Shown: positions 2-5,713 of the stretch, piece by piece
Layout of the letters: every line of letters begins with the position of its first letter
How positions within the stretch are numbered: position 1 is the first letter of the stretch
Source of the DNA: Alphaproteobacteria bacterium
GTDB lineage: Bacteria; Pseudomonadota; Alphaproteobacteria; RF32; CAG-239
Direction of reading: 5' to 3'
Length of the DNA stretch: 64,000 nt
Assembly: GCA_028706255.1 (NCBI GenBank)
Contig: JAQWBS010000001.1
Coordinates: forward strand, 23,617 to 87,616
Notes under the pieces: generated by a model
The model's input: the letters and a program-made list of their open reading frames with translations, nothing else
Databases searched by the model: none
Told to the model about the DNA's origin: nothing
Program-made: the position numbers and the translations under genes

Positions 2-1444
2 AAGAAGTCATATTTCATCTTTTTGGGAGCTTTTTTACTTTTTTATTCAAGCTTCATATTAACTAATAATGCCTTCGCTGGCGTTTATTTTATTACTAAA
101 CCCCAAGGAAACAATGATGGAGTCAGTAATAAACCCTGTCAATTGATGGGATATTTTTATAATAGTTCAAATTGTGGAGAGGGAAAATCTCTCTTTCAAA
201 AATGCCCCAATGGAAATACTTATAAGTTTTGTAAATGCGACCTTTCTCTTTATCCTTATACTGTCTCAAACTGTACAGAAACAGGCAAAGTTCTCGGAGG
301 AAAAGTCTGTGACAACACCTATTACGAAACTTGTAAATGTGAAGACAAATATCAATATGACACAACAAACTGTTCTTCACCTAAAACTCTAAGTGGCAAT
401 TCTTGTGGTGGAAAATATGAAAAATGCACGTGTCCTTCCACTTATTCTCAAACTTGTAGCGGAAATCTAATTGGGGTTGGAACAAGTTGTGATGGGAAAT
501 ATCAATCTTGTAAATGTAATAGTAATTTTCAAAAATGTGACAATGGCGGAACGTCTGGTGCTACCTCATGTTATGACTCTGAAGGAACGAAATATTCCAA
601 TTGTAAACAAATAAACTGTAGCGACGGAGGATATGTCTCTTCTGAACCTTATAATCAAAATTGCACCTATGTTTCATATAACGGAATAGATTGTTATAAA
701 AATTGTAAAGATAAAACCTGCTCTGATGGCGGATACCTTACTGCAGTTCCTGCCAATCAAACCTGTTCAACTGTTTCATATTTTGGACTAACTTGTTATC
801 GTAATTGTAAAAATATGAGCTGTTCAGAAGGGGGATATCTATCTTCCGCTCCTTCTAATCAAAAATGTACTTCCTTCACTTACAATGGCACAACTTGTTA
901 TAAAGACTGTGTAAACAAGAATTGTACAGAAGCTGGATATTTGGCCGCAGTTCCAACTGAACAAAACTGCAAGTCAATTTCTTATAATGGATTAACTTGC
1001 TATCAAAATTGTACAAATAAGAGCTGTGCTGAGGGAGGATATCTAGATGCAGCACCAAGTAATGACCATAAATGTAACTCGACCAGTTATGCAGGAAAAA
1101 CTTGCTACAAAGATTGTCAGTATAAAACCTGTGAAGATTATGCAAATACTTATGAATATGAACCTTATGGCGTGGTTTGTATGGGTCCAAATATCGTCCA
1201 AATAGCCAGTGGAAAACATTGCTACCAAAACTGTACAGATTATTGGAGAGAACCATGCACCGTAAGTAGTGACTGTAAAGATTTAAGTGCATCATATCCT
1301 AACAATTACCTACAAACTTGCTGGAATGGTTCTTGTAGATGTATGGAAGGAATCAGTTGGACATGCCTTAATCCTTGGAATGCGAGTAAAAACCCTTGGG
1401 CGCTAAATGCTGAAGAGAGATATAAAAATATCTATGGAGACTAA
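2..1444 (+). CDS. Secreted cysteine-rich modular repeat protein (true start probably just upstream of window)
   Basis: The ORF at 23-1444 stays open in frame back to nt 2, and KKSYFIFLGAFLLFYSSFILTNNAFA looks like a signal peptide. The mature part has ~5 N-terminal modules (C-x9-12-C-x6-7-C-x-C) followed by 6 tandem 34-aa modules of form C-[SE]-[DE]-G-G-Y-x9-N-Q-x-C-x9-10-C-Y-x-[ND]-C. I recognise no enzymatic motif. Confidence 0.6.
   Translation, partial: KKSYFIFLGAFLLFYSSFILTNNAFAGVYFITKPQGNNDGVSNKPCQLMGYFYNSSNCGEGKSLFQKCPNGNTYKFCKCDLSLYPYTVSNCTETGKVLGGKVCDNTYYETCKCEDKYQYDTTNCSSPKTLSGNSCGGKYEKCTCPSTYSQTCSGNLIGVGTSCDGKYQSCKCNSNFQKCDNGGTSGATSCYDSEGTKYSNCKQINCSDGGYVSSEPYNQNCTYVSYNGIDCYKNCKDKTCSDGGYLTAVPANQTCSTVSYFGLTCYRNCKNMSCSEGGYLSSAPSNQKCTSFTYNGTTCYKDCVNKNCTEAGYLAAVPTEQNCKSISYNGLTCYQNCTNKSCAEGGYLDAAPSNDHKCNSTSYAGKTCYKDCQYKTCEDYANTYEYEPYGVVCMGPNIVQIASGKHCYQNCTDYWREPCTVSSDCKDLSASYPNNYLQTCWNGSCRCMEGISWTCLNPWNASKNPWALNAEERYKNIYGD
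617..1234 (+). repeat. Six tandem ~102-nt (34-aa) coding repeats of the Cys-rich module (sixth copy degenerate)
   Basis: The protein-level periodicity CSDGGYVSSEPYNQNCTYVSYNGIDCYKNCKDKT / CSDGGYLTAVPANQTCSTVSYFGLTCYRNCKNMS / CSEGGYLSSAPSNQKCTSFTYNGTTCYKDCVNKN / CTEAGYLAAVPTEQNCKSISYNGLTCYQNCTNKS / CAEGGYLDAAPSNDHKCNSTSYAGKTCYKDCQYKT is visible in the translation. The DNA copies have diverged. Confidence 0.6.
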
Positions 1445-1542: not shown

Positions 1543-1612
1543 ACTATTGACTAAACCTTAGAAAATCAATAGTATCTGGTAAAACATAAACATATTATTG
1601 CAAGGGAAAAAA

Positions 1613-2494
1613 ATGAATTTTACGGAAATGGGTTTAAGCGAAAAAACCATCAAAGCAATTAAAGAATTTGGCATTAGAAAACCAACAACTGTGCAAACAG
1701 ATGTCATTCCTTCAATTCTACAAGGCAAAGATGTTTTTACCATCGCCCCACAAAAATGTGGCAAAACCACCTCATATGTTTTCCCTCTCATTGACATCAT
1801 CAGCAAACACGAAAGACAAAACATTTTGATTATCACACCATCTTCAGAAGATTCTGTGACCATTTCAGATCGTTTTGCTGTGTTTAATAAATATCATGAA
1901 ATCAATGAAGCAACCATCACTGAAGGCGATGAAGACATTGACAATGAAGCTAATGTCATTATTGGTTCTCCAGACCTTTTATTGGAACTCATTGAAGAAA
2001 GCAAAGTTGATTTATCAAACATCAATATTTTGGTTGTTGATGACATCAACCTAATCAAAAAACACAAGCAACTTGAAAACTTGGAAAAGATTCTCGACAT
2101 TTTACCAAGTGAAAAACAAAACATTGTTTACACAAATCGCCGTTCAAAAGAAACACAAAGCATTCTTGATAAAATTTTGAAAGCGCCAGAAGAAATTAAA
2201 ATCGACAAGGCAAAAGAACAAGAAGCAGAGATTGCTGAACAAAACATTGAGCAAAAAGCAGACTCAGAACCTGTTGAAGCAAAACAAGAAGAGACACGAG
2301 CTCCAAGAAGAGAAAGAAATAACAACAGAGAAAGACAAGAAAACAAAGACCGCCAAAGACAAAACAATAACAACAATGGCAAAGTCAACAATTTTGACCA
2401 TGAAGCTTTGCACCTTGCCAAAAAGTTCAATGCTTTTTCTGGCAGAGCGCCAAAATTCATTTTGAACAAAGGCATTCTTGTTAGAGATAACTAA
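1613..2494 (+). CDS. Degenerate DEAD-box helicase N-terminal (RecA-like domain 1) protein with a basic R/N/Q-rich tail; lacks helicase C-terminal domain
   Basis: There is a Q-motif-like TTVQ, a motif I-like APQKCGKT (compare AQTGSGKT), a motif Ia-like ITPSSED, and VVDDIN where DEAD would be. No motifs III-VI are present. It ends in a RAPRRERNNNRERQENKDRQRQNNNNN tail. The ATG at 1613 has an AAGGGA Shine-Dalgarno sequence; the tracked start at 1598 is TTG. Confidence 0.6.
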   Translation: MNFTEMGLSEKTIKAIKEFGIRKPTTVQTDVIPSILQGKDVFTIAPQKCGKTTSYVFPLIDIISKHERQNILIITPSSEDSVTISDRFAVFNKYHEINEATITEGDEDIDNEANVIIGSPDLLLELIEESKVDLSNINILVVDDINLIKKHKQLENLEKILDILPSEKQNIVYTNRRSKETQSILDKILKAPEEIKIDKAKEQEAEIAEQNIEQKADSEPVEAKQEETRAPRRERNNNRERQENKDRQRQNNNNNGKVNNFDHEALHLAKKFNAFSGRAPKFILNKGILVRDN

Positions 2495-3157: not shown

Positions 3158-3186
3158 AAAAAAGCGAACCGATTTCTCGATTCGCT
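3158..3186 (-). terminator. Rho-independent terminator of gene 3204-3902 (AGCGAA CCGATTTCTCGAT TCGCT plus U-run on the minus strand)
   Basis: A hairpin is immediately followed by A6 on the plus strand, which is U6 on the minus strand. Its core CGAACCGATTTCTCGATTCG is identical to the rplQ terminator at 3978-4008. Confidence 0.55.
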
Positions 3187-3203
3187 TTGAAGATAATTAA
3201 CAG

Positions 3204-3902
3204 CTAAGCTTTGTTATGTTTCTCGATAAAAGCAATAACAAGCTCCTGATTAGGAAATTTCTTTGCAGACAAAGAATAGATATCTCCTGCAGATTTCCAA
3301 TTTACAGAGCAATCTTTATACTCAAAACCAAGTTTCTCAATTAAGTCATAAAACGCATTGAAATAATTAGGTCTATTAGCTTTATATTGCTTACGCGCTT
3401 GCAACTGTAAACTTGAAACCAAATCACCAACAAGCGTATAACCCATCTCAGAAAGCCAATTAAAATGGCGAGAAGCAAAAGTGGGAATAAATGTCAGAGG
3501 AATTAATAGCCCTTCATTTATCTCCGACTTTCTAATGTCAAAAACCTTACCCTGCCAAAACAACTCAAAAGCTTTCTCCACACTAATAAACGGTGGAAAA
3601 TATTTTTGGGAAATCTCCATATGGTTATCGGGTAGCCAATCAACATGCTCAAAAGAATGACTAAAAGTTAACTCAAATTTTTTGAGTATTTCCTTAAGTT
3701 CTTTCAAACTTTTTTCACCGATGTTTCTAAACTTTAAAACATCTTCTTCGGAATACATCAATACTTCACCTAAATATGGACAATTCAAGTATCGTAAAAA
3801 ATTCAGGGTTCTTTGAGAAAGTTTTAGTTGCTCAATGGGGACGAAGTAACCAATCTTGCCTTCAAGCAAGGCTTTTTCTTCTGATAAAATCTCTTTTTTC
3901 AT
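3204..3902 (-). CDS. Stand-alone protein with two RNA polymerase alpha-subunit C-terminal-domain (alpha-CTD, HhH)-like domains
   Basis: LKLSQRTLNFLRYLNCPYLGEVLMYSEEDVLKFRNIGEKSLKELKEILKKF aligns at about 40% identity with this genome's own RpoA CTD ([51 protein letters not shown]). A second, weaker copy is NWLSEMGYTLVGDLVSS...LIEKLG. Confidence 0.55.
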   Translation of the reverse strand: MKKEILSEEKALLEGKIGYFVPIEQLKLSQRTLNFLRYLNCPYLGEVLMYSEEDVLKFRNIGEKSLKELKEILKKFELTFSHSFEHVDWLPDNHMEISQKYFPPFISVEKAFELFWQGKVFDIRKSEINEGLLIPLTFIPTFASRHFNWLSEMGYTLVGDLVSSLQLQARKQYKANRPNYFNAFYDLIEKLGFEYKDCSVNWKSAGDIYSLSAKKFPNQELVIAFIEKHNKA

Positions 3903-3977
3903 ATAATTTTATTTTAATAATACATAAATCATAGTAAATGAGATGGCAAATTATCACACTTAACAAAACCTGTCTAC

Positions 3978-4008
3978 ACAAAAAAACGAACCGATTTCTC
4001 GATTCGTT
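3978..4008 (-). terminator. Rho-independent terminator ending the alpha operon after rplQ
   Basis: AACGAA CCGATTTCTCGAT TCGTT hairpin followed by U7 on the minus strand. It is a near-identical copy of the hairpin at 3158-3186. Confidence 0.6.
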
Positions 4009-4034
4009 TCTTTTATATAAAATGTTCTAAAGAA

Positions 4035-4472
4035 CTATTCTGCTTTTGCAGCTTCCGCAGCAGCAACTTTTTCAGCAGCAACTCTAGCCAAGTCTTCAGC
4101 ACCTTTGGCAGCAACATCTCTGTCAACCAATTCAATGATTGCCATATCAGCAGCATCGCCATATCTAAAACCAGCTTTAAGAACACGAGTATAACCACCG
4201 TTACGGTCTTTATATCTTTCACCTAATGTAGAGAAAAGCTTAGACACAACTTCTTTATTACGAAGAAATGAATTTGCTCTTCTGCGACTTGCGAGGTCAC
4301 CTTTTTTTGCCAAAGTGATCATATTGTCAGCGAAAGTTCTGAGTTCTTTTGCTCTTTGCAAAGTAATTTTAATTTGTTCATGGTTCAACAAAGCAGCTGT
4401 CAAGTTTGAGAACAATGCTCTTCTTTGGCTTGTTGTCATGCTGAATTTTCTATGTTTCATTCCGTGTCTCAT
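4035..4472 (-). CDS. rplQ: 50S ribosomal protein L17
   Basis: [10 protein letters not shown]...[27 protein letters not shown] matches L17, with an Ala-rich C-terminal tail. The ATG at 4472 has an AAGGA Shine-Dalgarno sequence. Confidence 0.9.
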
Positions 4473-4612
4473 CATTTTTTCCTTTTCTCTAATGCTTTGC
4501 ATGCAAAGCGGATAATACAGACCGATACTACCCTAAAACACAAAGATATATATCGGCAAATTAAAGGTTAAATACAAAATTTAAATCTAACCTAATTTCT
4601 TAAAATTTTAAT

Positions 4613-4705: not shown

Positions 4706-5713
4706 CTAGAAGTGTTCGTCAACGCGACGAATCAAATCTTCAATATTTTCAGGTGGCCAACCAACAACTTCCATGCCGAGGTGGATACCCATTTTTGTAA
4801 GAACTTCTTTGATTTCATTCAAAGATTTTCTACCAAAGTTTGGTGTTCTGAGCATTTCTGCTTCTGTTTTTTGAACCAAATCACCAATATAAACAATGTT
4901 ATCATTCTTCAAGCAATTTGCAGAACGAACAGAAAGTTCAAGCTCTTCAACTTTTTTAAGAAGATTTCTGTTAAATGGAAGTTCTTCTTTTTCTGCTTTT
5001 GTTTCAACTTCAGGTTCATCAAAGTTAATGAAAGGCTTAAGTTGATCTTGCAAAATTCTTGCTGAATATGCAATCGCATCTTCAGGCGTGATAACACCAT
5101 TTGTTTCAATTACGAGTGTGAGTTTGTCATAGTCAGTCACTTGACCAACACGAGTATTCTCAACTTTGTAAGAAACTTTTTTAACTGGAGAATAAATTGC
5201 ATCAACTGCAATCACCCCAATTGGTGCATCAGCGGCTTTGTTTTGATATGCAGGAACATAGCCTTTTCCGGTTCCGACAGTAAATTCAACATTAATTTTT
5301 GCGCCAGCGTCCAATGTGCAAATGAAATGATTAGGATTTTTGATTTCAACATCATGTCCTGTTTGAATCATTGCAGCGGTAACTTCGCATGGACCTTCTG
5401 CTTTAAGGCTCATTGTTTTTGTGCCTTCGCCTTCAACGGCAACAGCCAAACCTTTAATGTTTAAAATAATGTCTGTAACATCTTCTTTAACACCTGGGAT
5501 TACAGTGAACTCATGCAAAACACCGTCAATTTTGACAGCTGTTACAGCGCCACCTTGCAAAGAAGAAAGTAAAACTCTTCTCAATGCATTACCCAAAGTT
5601 AGACCAAAACCTCTCTCAAGAGGCTCGACTACTATTTTAGCTCTGCTTGCACTTTCGTTAACAACGTCTAAATTAGTAGGTTTAATAAGTTCTTGCCAAT
5701 TCTTTTGAATCAC
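4706..5713 (-). CDS. rpoA: DNA-directed RNA polymerase subunit alpha
   Basis: Full-length alpha subunit with NTD and CTD ([20 protein letters not shown]), in its alpha-operon position. Confidence 0.95.

What the first reader, a model, noticed from the sequence alone, without database searches (positions are those of the whole stretch)
3204..3902. Free-standing paralog of the RNA polymerase alpha C-terminal domain encoded immediately downstream of rpoA-rplQ
A 232-aa protein contains two alpha-CTD-like helix-hairpin-helix segments but no alpha NTD. The first shares about 40% identity with this genome's own RpoA CTD over 55 residues. A detached alpha-CTD could compete for UP elements or activator contacts, or act as a decoy or anti-activator. 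Being placed right after the alpha operon hints at an origin by partial duplication of rpoA.
Basis: partly seen in the sequence, partly recalled or inferred. Interest (0 to 1): 0.6.

Follow-up and report, generated by a model that had tools for sequence, protein, structure and literature searches.

The report
Stand-alone double alpha-CTD-like protein
Right after the RNA polymerase alpha and ribosomal protein L17 genes, this bacterium has a real gene for a small protein made of two copies of the polymerase's DNA-touching tail domain and nothing to attach it to the polymerase; it is a rare, unstudied variant of a common domain, and its role is inferred, not shown.

Summary
Window 3204-3902 (minus strand) encodes a 232-aa protein (NCBI MDD4555721.1, from an Alphaproteobacteria metagenome-assembled genome). 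It lies 132 nt downstream of rplQ, which follows rpoA.

- **First module:** residues 20-74 match Pfam RNA_pol_A_CTD (E 2.7e-17). Identity to the genome's own RpoA CTD is 22/55.
- **No alpha N-terminal domain** is present.
- **Second module:** too diverged for Pfam, but profile-profile comparison supports it (HHalign 90.6% against an alpha-CTD profile). The two halves align over 104 columns (94.4%), so the protein is an internal duplication of a ~110-aa unit.
- **DNA-contact residues:** module 1 keeps six of seven E. coli "265 determinant" residues. The acidic "261 determinant" that touches sigma is lost. Module 2 lacks the second hairpin.
- **Transcription unit:** the gene sits between two near-identical intrinsic terminators.
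- **Selection:** it is under purifying selection but evolves far faster than its neighbours.
- **Family size:** only four sequences among ~15 billion proteins, and only two of them lie next to rplQ.

Origin from this lineage's rpoA is possible but not demonstrated. Non-RpoA proteins with tandem alpha-CTDs are common in metagenomes. The competitor/decoy function is plausible and untested. Interest is moderate to low.

The parts
3204..3902 (-). 232-aa ORF (stop codon included), identical to NCBI MDD4555721.1. It is a free-standing protein of two alpha-CTD-type modules.
   Evidence: ORF listing. Exact database match, named 'alpha C-terminal domain-containing protein'. Reading frame conserved in 3 relatives. 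Against the L001 orthologue pN is 0.24 and pS 0.80.
3621..3854 (-). Module 1, residues 17-94: a bona fide alpha-CTD, i.e. an (HhH)2 domain. R31, N34, G62, K64 and S65 correspond to E. coli R265, N268, G296, K298 and S299. K27 replaces E261. The module ends with the W89-x-P motif.
3528..3620 (-). Family-specific extension and inter-module segment, residues 95-125: 'EISQKYFPPFISVEKAFELFWQGKVFD'. This is the best-conserved family-specific part (I97, K100, Y101, F102, L114, K119 invariant).
   Evidence: Four-sequence alignment. It aligns with the C-terminal tail 'LSAKKFPNQELVIAFIEK' in the half-vs-half comparison.
3276..3527 (-). Module 2, residues 126-209: a degenerate alpha-CTD-like module. It keeps the 'SRHFNWL...VGDLV' first hairpin and the terminal W202, but has no G-x-K-S second hairpin. 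It is the fastest-evolving part of the protein (33% identity to the L001 orthologue over residues 136-190).
   Evidence: HHalign 90.6-93.5% against the alpha-CTD profile, with shuffle control. No Pfam or PDB sequence hit. Regional divergence. Helices in the AF2 model map one-to-one onto module 1 at an offset of ~111-117 residues (pLDDT only 63).
3207..3275 (-). C-terminal tail, residues 210-232: the repeat of the 'S-x-K-[YK]-F-P + helix' extension (S212, F216, E220 invariant).
3983..4010 (-). Intrinsic terminator of rplQ / the alpha operon: a GAAA-loop hairpin plus U-tract. It separates the ORF from the operon.
   Evidence: RNA fold -21.1 kcal/mol, z -6.1. The 20-nt core is identical to the hairpin after the ORF. 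It is conserved in L001.
3911..3957 (-). Candidate own promoter(s) of the ORF: GTGATA-18-TATGAT and TTTACT-16-TAAAAT. The second -10 box ends 8 nt before the ATG, and there is no Shine-Dalgarno sequence.
   Evidence: Consensus scan; the number of such sites is not above chance, so this is weak. Upstream sequences compared.
3161..3188 (-). Intrinsic terminator of the ORF, with the same stem and loop as the rplQ terminator.
   Evidence: Terminator scan: 12 pairs plus T-tract. Fold -17.6 kcal/mol, z -4.4. This 20-mer occurs only twice in the 64 kb; 0 expected by chance.
4035..4502 (-). rplQ (ribosomal protein L17), the upstream neighbour.
   Evidence: Pfam Ribosomal_L17 on the L001 orthologue. 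91% identity between window and L001.
4706..5713 (-). rpoA, the full-length RNA polymerase alpha subunit (NTD plus CTD).
   Evidence: NCBIfam NF003513 at 535 bits; Pfam RNA_pol_L, RNA_pol_A_bac and RNA_pol_A_CTD.

Best explanation
Shown: the ORF is a real, selectively maintained gene. It encodes a ~27-kDa cytoplasmic protein built from an internal duplication of a ~110-residue unit. Each unit is an alpha-CTD-type (HhH)2 domain plus a short 'W...S-x-K-[YK]-F-P + helix' extension. There is no alpha N-terminal domain, so the protein cannot be assembled into RNA polymerase in the alpha position. It forms its own transcription unit, bracketed by the alpha-operon terminator and a near-identical copy of that terminator.

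Inferred: module 1 retains the minor-groove DNA-binding determinant of alpha-CTD and therefore binds A/T-rich, UP-element-like DNA independently of the polymerase. It has lost the acidic patch that alpha-CTD uses to touch sigma region 4. Module 2 has lost the DNA-contact hairpin and most likely serves as a structural or protein-contact module. The most likely effect is modulation, probably dampening, of transcription that depends on alpha-CTD contacts, by occupying the DNA sites (or partners) that the polymerase's own alpha-CTDs would use.
For: - Second module and internal duplication: HHalign 90.6% and 94.4%, each far above shuffle controls.
- DNA-contact residues: L28, R31, N34, G62, K64, S65 correspond to E. 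coli L262, R265, N268, G296, K298, S299; only C269 changes, to F35. R31, N34, G45 and G62 are invariant in all four family members. That these E. coli residues form the UP-element/DNA determinant is established knowledge (alanine scans and alpha-CTD-DNA crystal structures such as 1LB2 and 3N97, which appear among the fold hits).
- Real gene: the frame is intact in four sequences down to ~28% identity; pN/pS <= 0.30 with pS saturated.
- Own unit: strong terminators on both sides.
- Precedent for titration: excess free alpha subunit lowers BvgA-dependent transcription in Bordetella pertussis (PMC7742992, read).
Against: - There is no experimental or expression evidence of any kind.
- K298 is not conserved in the family (I in P0002, T in P0028).
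- Module 1 is mildly acidic (pI 5.7) and the whole protein is neutral (pI 7.0).
- The promoter assignment is weak, since consensus sites are not above chance.
- There is no conserved gene neighbourhood across the four members that would tie the family to transcription.
- Other tandem alpha-CTD proteins occur in unrelated settings such as a dnd-like cluster, so the domain may simply be a generic DNA-binding module.
- The structure model has only moderate confidence (pLDDT 63).
Confidence: 0.4

Rival explanations
1. It is a generic DNA-binding or nucleoid-associated (HhH)2 protein with no specific link to RNA polymerase or UP elements. The alpha-CTD fold is reused as a non-specific minor-groove binder, and the position next to rplQ is incidental.
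For: - Alpha-CTD domains occur in many non-RpoA architectures: TPR + 2x alpha-CTD, 2x alpha-CTD alone, with Sigma70_r4, with T5orf172, and in a dnd-like cluster.
- Two of the four family members are not near rpoA/rplQ.
Against: - The specific alpha-CTD DNA determinant, not just the fold, is retained.
- The similarity extends into the RpoA-type 'W-P-[DE]-N' tail.
Confidence: 0.25
2. It is a protein decoy or adaptor. The modules bind transcription factors or other alpha-CTD partners (activators, NusA-type domains) rather than DNA, either sequestering them or bridging them.
For: - Excess free alpha sequesters BvgA in B. pertussis (PMC7742992).
- Module 2 and the conserved KYFP extension have no DNA-contact residues and look like protein-contact surfaces.
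Against: - The residues invariant across the family in module 1 are the DNA-contact ones (R31, N34, G62), not the known activator-contact patches.
- The 261 determinant is charge-reversed.
- No partner gene is conserved nearby.
Confidence: 0.15
3. It is an RNAP-associated accessory subunit. It docks on the polymerase through its family-specific extension and supplies extra alpha-CTD-like DNA contacts, giving a positive rather than a competitive effect.
For: - Location after the alpha operon in two members.
- Conserved family-specific segments of unknown role.
Against: - No similarity to any known RNAP-binding module.
- It is separated from the operon by a strong terminator.
- The family is extremely rare, four sequences only.
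Confidence: 0.1
4. It is a decaying relic of a local duplication with no function.
For: - It evolves much faster than its neighbours: 60% aa identity against 91-100%.
- Module 2 is strongly degenerate.
- There is no Shine-Dalgarno sequence.
Against: - The frame is intact in four lineages down to ~28% identity, with conserved motifs.
- pN/pS <= 0.3.
- It has its own terminator.
Confidence: 0.05

Closest known systems
C-terminal domain of the bacterial RNA polymerase alpha subunit (RpoA alpha-CTD; Pfam PF03118)
   Same: Module 1 is a clear sequence homologue: E 2.7e-17, and 38-40% identity to the genome's own RpoA CTD. It has the same (HhH)2 fold hits, the same DNA-contact residues (R265, N268, G296, K298, S299) and the RpoA-type W-P-[DE]-N tail.
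   Different: It has no NTD and no flexible linker to a polymerase core. The acidic 261 determinant is replaced (D259 to Q, E261 to K). It is fused to a family-specific extension and to a second, degenerate copy.
Uncharacterised non-RpoA proteins with two or more tandem alpha-CTD domains (e.g. P0024, P0030, P0087, P0140; TPR + 2x alpha-CTD proteins such as P0035 and P0150), which NCBI names 'alpha C-terminal domain-containing protein'
   Same: The general plan is the same: two alpha-CTD-type modules in one polypeptide, detached from the polymerase.
   Different: In those proteins both copies are canonical, giving two or more Pfam hits each. Here the second copy is below Pfam detection, and each copy carries a ~30-aa 'KYFP + helix' extension found only in this four-member family. 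I found no experimental study of any such protein in the searchable literature.
Overproduced free alpha subunit as a titrator of activators (Bordetella pertussis RpoA/BvgA)
   Same: This is a functional analogy: alpha-CTD surfaces that are not incorporated into a productive initiation complex lower activator-dependent transcription (PMC7742992).
   Different: That case is the normal full-length alpha in excess, not a dedicated gene. No equivalent effect has been tested for this ORF.
Second alpha subunit genes (e.g. Francisella alpha1/alpha2; PDB 6WMP)
   Same: It is a paralogue of alpha-subunit sequence within one genome. Francisella alpha1 was the best PDB sequence hit (42.2 bits).
   Different: The Francisella paralogues are full-length, with the NTD, and assemble into RNAP as a heterodimer. 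This ORF lacks the NTD.

Membership tests
RpoA, RNA polymerase alpha subunit (TIGR02027 / NF003513) | N-terminal dimerisation/assembly domain (Pfam RNA_pol_L PF01193 with the RNA_pol_A_bac PF01000 insert) | tested here: not met
   No hit at E <= 1 for the ORF. The neighbouring true RpoA hits both domains.
RpoA, RNA polymerase alpha subunit (TIGR02027 / NF003513) | Whole-protein score above the curated NCBIfam cut-off | tested here: not met
   52.6 bits against a cut-off of 227.8 (TIGR02027), and 49.9 against 302 (NF003513); only the last ~60-80 model positions are matched.
Pfam PF03118 RNA_pol_A_CTD domain | Score above the gathering threshold (23.8 bits) | tested here: met
   Module 1 scores 62.7 bits, E 2.7e-17, residues 20-74.
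Pfam PF03118 RNA_pol_A_CTD domain | Second copy (residues ~126-209) recognisable as the same domain | tested here: inconclusive
   No Pfam hit. An in-house alpha-CTD HMM gives only 5.4 bits over residues 144-163. Profile-profile comparison gives 90.6-93.5% probability, z about 16 against shuffles. The two distant members alone give no signal.
Alpha-CTD as a UP-element/DNA-binding module | '265 determinant' residues (E. coli L262, R265, N268, C269, G296, K298, S299) | tested here: met
   Six of seven are identical in module 1 (C269 becomes F35). R, N and G296 are invariant in the family, while K298 varies. This is a sequence test only; binding itself is not testable with these tools.
Alpha-CTD as a sigma-70 region 4 contact module | '261 determinant' acidic residues (E. 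coli D259, E261) | tested here: not met
   The ORF has Q25 and K27. The genome's own RpoA keeps E-E at these positions.
Tandem alpha-CTD domain proteins (non-RpoA) | Two or more alpha-CTD modules in one chain without the alpha NTD | tested here: met
   Internal duplication supported at 94.4% over 104 columns. Comparable architectures are seen. This is a loose grouping, not a curated family.
BREX PglW (alpha-CTD-like segment) | Significant match to the PglW model, including the kinase | tested here: not met
   PADLOC gives 11.8 bits, E 0.0094, covering the HhH segment only. NCBIfam NF033442 gives 14.4 bits against a cut-off of 990.
NF005841 (PRK07758), a small hypothetical alpha-CTD-like protein | Score above the curated cut-off (115 bits) | tested here: not met
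   15.2 bits, E 0.02.

The most novel reading that the evidence does not exclude
The protein is a dedicated, naturally evolved trans-acting mimic of the polymerase's pair of alpha-CTDs. It would occupy UP-element-like A/T tracts (or alpha-CTD partners) and so tune UP- or activator-dependent promoters, for example those of rRNA and ribosomal-protein genes, in a small-genome alphaproteobacterium. That would be a new class of global transcription modulator, born beside the alpha operon.
Probability: 0.15. Interest if true: 0.6.

Novelty: new variant of a known kind. Interest (0 to 1): 0.35.

Why it matters
Alpha-CTD is the main hub through which bacterial activators and UP elements recruit RNA polymerase. 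Genes that encode the domain on its own are common in metagenomes and, as far as I could find, unstudied. This locus gives a compact, well-delimited example: two modules, the DNA determinant kept, the sigma contact lost, and its own transcription unit beside the alpha operon. It could be used to test whether free alpha-CTD mimics act as competitors or decoys. If it does nothing of the sort, it remains a minor case of domain reuse.

Tried and rejected
- **C-terminal half derived from rplQ (tandem duplication of 'rpoA-CTD + rplQ + terminator').** BLASTP of the ORF against L17 gives only 7/18 identities, E 0.022 for a single comparison. That motif is absent from the two distant family members. 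Rejected in favour of the alpha-CTD-like internal duplication.
- **Search for more relatives.** The word-indexed searches with the single protein, the full 4-sequence profile and the C-terminal profile returned only the same four full-length proteins. The exhaustive HMMER search of 1.84 billion representatives showed no further full-length relative among its best 150. Beyond those 150, weaker hits that match only the C-terminal part would be hidden.
- **Collection scans.** Two scans of genome contigs, one of metagenome contigs and one of viral contigs found nothing.
- **tblastn against phage and plasmid records:** no match.
- **PHROGs:** no hit. **PADLOC:** only a sub-threshold PglW HhH match. 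A phage or defence origin is therefore not supported.
- **Structure prediction.** AF2 with two sequences was unusable (pLDDT 41). With four sequences it was moderate (pLDDT 63). The afdb50 fold library was unavailable.
- **PDB sequence search with the C-terminal profile:** nothing relevant.
- **Conserved neighbours.** The small membrane proteins downstream of the gene in the window and in L003 are not homologous. There is no shared neighbour in L002.
- **Conserved operator upstream.** Only the terminator aligns between the window and L001.
- **Rfam:** no RNA family anywhere in the window.
- **Literature.** Five searches found no paper on free-standing alpha-CTD paralogues.

Full report
**1. 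What is there**

The coordinates given (3204-3902) hold a 232-aa ATG-to-stop ORF on the minus strand. Upstream on the same strand lie:
- rpoA (4706-5713). It scores 535 bits on NCBIfam NF003513 and hits Pfam RNA_pol_L, RNA_pol_A_bac and RNA_pol_A_CTD.
- rplQ (4035-4502).
- The rest of the S10-spc-alpha ribosomal cluster.

The ORF product is identical to NCBI MDD4555721.1. That entry comes from a 488,686-bp contig of an 'Alphaproteobacteria bacterium' MAG, where the annotation pipeline already calls it 'DNA-directed RNA polymerase subunit alpha C-terminal domain-containing protein'. The window is 36.7% G+C and the ORF 33.8%.

**2. First alpha-CTD segment**

- Pfam RNA_pol_A_CTD matches residues 20-74 at 62.7 bits (gathering threshold 23.8), E 2.7e-17. 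No alpha N-terminal domain is detected.
- NCBIfam RpoA models match only their last 60-80 positions and score far below their cut-offs.
- BLASTP against the genome's own RpoA gives 27/71 identities, E 5e-13.
- A profile search of PDB sequences returns only RpoA chains.

**3. Second segment and internal duplication**

The second segment is invisible to Pfam. It is only weakly similar to RpoA by BLASTP (21% identity, E 0.029). An alpha-CTD HMM that I built from 422 domain instances gives just 5.4 bits, over residues 144-163.

Profile-profile comparison is clearer.
- The family alignment of residues 95-232 aligns with the whole 81-column alpha-CTD profile at 90.6% probability (E 1.3e-6, score 36.6). 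The tighter slice 125-205 gives 93.5%.
- Two hundred column-shuffled controls gave mean 9.8, sd 1.7 and maximum 16.5. The reversed alignment scored 8.9.
- The second half of the protein (125-232) aligns with the first half (1-124) over 104 columns at 94.4% (score 46.5; shuffles mean 11.1, maximum 18).

That half-vs-half alignment covers more than the (HhH)2 core. It also includes the terminal tryptophan (W89/W202), an 'S-x-K-[YK]-F-P' motif (98-103 / 212-217) and a following helix. The protein is therefore an internal duplication of a ~110-residue unit.

Caveat: the module 2 signal comes mainly from the window protein and its closest relative (50% probability each alone, 73.5% as a pair). The two distant members alone are not significant, although adding them raises the score.

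**4. Functional residues**

I aligned module 1 to E. coli alpha.

| E. coli residue | ORF residue |
|---|---|
| L262 | L28 |
| R265 | R31 |
| N268 | N34 |
| C269 | F35 (changed) |
| G296 | G62 |
| K298 | K64 |
| S299 | S65 |
| D259 | Q25 (changed) |
| E261 | K27 (changed) |

- The first seven are, from established alanine-scan and crystallographic work, the '265 determinant' that binds the minor groove of UP elements. Six of the seven are kept.
- R31, N34, G45 and G62 are invariant in all four family members. The K298 position varies: K, I, K, T.
- D259 and E261 form the acidic '261 determinant' that contacts sigma-70 region 4. The ORF has Q25 and K27 there, whereas the genome's own RpoA keeps E-E.
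- Module 2 of the window protein has R145 and N148 in register, but these are not conserved in the closest relative, and the G-x-K-S hairpin is absent.

So module 1 looks DNA-binding-competent and module 2 does not.

**5. Is it a real gene?**

A 60%-identical orthologue (P0002) sits in the same place after rpoA-rplQ on a metagenomic contig (L001). Two distant relatives, P0052 (226 aa) and P0028 (255 aa), have ~28-31% identity and share the whole architecture with an intact frame.

Window versus L001:

| Gene | aa identity | pN | pS |
|---|---|---|---|
| ORF | 60% | 0.24 | 0.80 (saturated) |
| rplQ (L17) | 91% | 0.042 | 0.36 |
| rpoA CTD | 100% | 0.005 | 0.31 |

The ORF is therefore under purifying selection (pN/pS <= 0.3) but evolves far faster than its neighbours. 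Residues 136-190 are the fastest part, at 33% identity.

**6. Transcription unit**

- A strong hairpin with a U-tract lies between rplQ and the ORF (3983-4010; -21.1 kcal/mol, z -6.1).
- Another follows the ORF (3161-3188; -17.6 kcal/mol, z -4.4).
- Their 20-nt cores are identical. This 20-mer occurs only at these two places in the 64 kb, with 0 expected by chance.
- L001 has the same stems at both positions.

So the ORF is insulated from the alpha operon, and the terminator was duplicated before the two lineages split. This is the only direct trace of a local duplication or insertion event.

Promoter-like hexamers exist in the 80 nt upstream, but they are no more frequent than chance. The ORF and all three relatives lack a Shine-Dalgarno sequence and have a TAAAAT/TAAATA-like box 6-9 nt before the ATG. 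By contrast, 31 of 49 other ORFs in the window have an SD-like motif. This could mean a leaderless mRNA, but in such A/T-rich DNA it is only a hint.

**7. Origin**

The idea that the gene arose by partial duplication of this lineage's rpoA is not excluded, but it is not specifically supported.
- The genome's own RpoA CTD is not the nearest alpha-CTD. By BLAST it ranks 23rd among the 150 best database proteins (51.6 vs 59.7 bits). By best-domain HMM score it ranks 25th with the 2-sequence profile and 10th with the 4-sequence profile.
- The similarity does extend into the RpoA-type W-P-[DE]-N tail, but other free alpha-CTD proteins have that tail too.
- The two distant family members are not next to rplQ. 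P0052 lies between an H+-PPase gene and unknown genes. P0028 follows a histidine-phosphatase gene.
- A derivation of the C-terminal half from rplQ was tested and rejected.

**8. How common is this?**

The family itself is tiny. There are four sequences in a ~15-billion-protein collection, each a singleton cluster. Among the best 150 hits of an exhaustive HMMER search of 1.84 billion representatives there was no other full-length relative. Nothing turned up in the genome, metagenome, viral, phage or plasmid collections.

The general theme is not rare. The same exhaustive search found 2,840 proteins with E <= 0.001, and the top of the list is dominated by non-RpoA proteins with 2-10 alpha-CTD copies. 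Examples are stand-alone 2x alpha-CTD proteins, TPR + 2x alpha-CTD, 2x alpha-CTD + sigma-70 region 4, and T5orf172 + 2x alpha-CTD. One sits in a dnd-like cluster. I found no paper that characterises any such protein.

**9. Mechanism**

Shown:
- a two-module alpha-CTD-type protein without the assembly domain;
- the DNA determinant kept in module 1 and the sigma contact lost;
- its own transcription unit;
- purifying selection.

Inferred: the protein binds A/T-rich minor-groove sites off the polymerase. It thereby competes with, or otherwise modulates, alpha-CTD-dependent promoter recognition. A conceptual precedent is that excess free alpha lowers BvgA-dependent transcription in Bordetella pertussis (PMC7742992).

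Rivals:
- a generic (HhH)2 DNA binder;
- a protein decoy or adaptor;
- an RNAP accessory factor;
- a decaying relic, which selection and conservation make unlikely.

**10. Verdict**

The protein is a new, very rare variant of a known and widespread kind (alpha-CTD-containing proteins outside RpoA), and it is already generically labelled in GenBank. Interest is moderate to low (0.35). It would rise if a competitor or decoy role were shown.

Noticed in passing
window 3161-3188 and 3983-4010 (minus strand); L001 1075-1107 and 2118-2150: Two near-identical GAAA-loop terminator hairpins (20-nt core identical) bracket the ORF and occur nowhere else in the 64 kb. The related contig has the same stems at both positions, so the terminator was duplicated before the lineages split.
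   Followed up: yes
window 3903-3925; L001 1357-1397; L002 7488-7527; L003 521-560: The ORF and all three relatives lack a Shine-Dalgarno motif and have a TAAAAT/TAAATA-like box 6-9 nt before the ATG, which hints at leaderless mRNAs. About two-thirds of the other ORFs in the window have an SD-like motif.
   Followed up: partly
window 3204-3902 vs L001 1398-2105, compared with rplQ and the rpoA 3' end: Synonymous divergence of the ORF is saturated (pS 0.80), whereas the adjacent rplQ and rpoA CTD have pS 0.31-0.36. This may reflect codon constraint in the highly expressed neighbours or a different history of the ORF; it was not resolved.
   Followed up: partly
window 23-1444 (+): A 473-aa cysteine-rich protein with about six tandem ~38-aa units of the form 'C-[ST]-[DE]-G-G-Y-[LV]...P..Q.C...Y.G..CY..C', preceded by a hydrophobic N-terminus. 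It has no Pfam hit. It may be a secreted or surface repeat protein.
   Followed up: partly
window 1598-2494 (+): A 298-aa protein with only the first RecA-like (DEAD) domain of a DEAD-box helicase (Pfam residues 30-178). It has no Helicase_C domain and carries a basic, N/R/Q-rich low-complexity tail that includes an 18-nt tandem repeat at 2309-2349. It could be a truncated or split helicase.
   Followed up: no
L005 544-4897: One of the closest non-family alpha-CTD proteins (P0024, 2x alpha-CTD, 224 aa) sits in a dnd-like cluster: an AAA_23/SMC_N protein, DndE, the 2x alpha-CTD protein, and then a Sigma70_r4 protein. This suggests tandem alpha-CTD modules are reused in DNA-modification or defence loci.
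   Followed up: no
L004 193-714 (P0030): A 173-aa stand-alone protein with two canonical alpha-CTDs whose sequence closely resembles alphaproteobacterial RpoA CTDs, including 'GWPPENLEAL'. It looks like an independent and more recent detachment or duplication of alpha-CTD. The contig is too short to show context.
   Followed up: partly
window 1-64000: No Rfam family reaches its gathering score anywhere in the window, even though it holds the S10-spc-alpha ribosomal protein cluster, where r-protein leader RNAs are often found.
   Followed up: no
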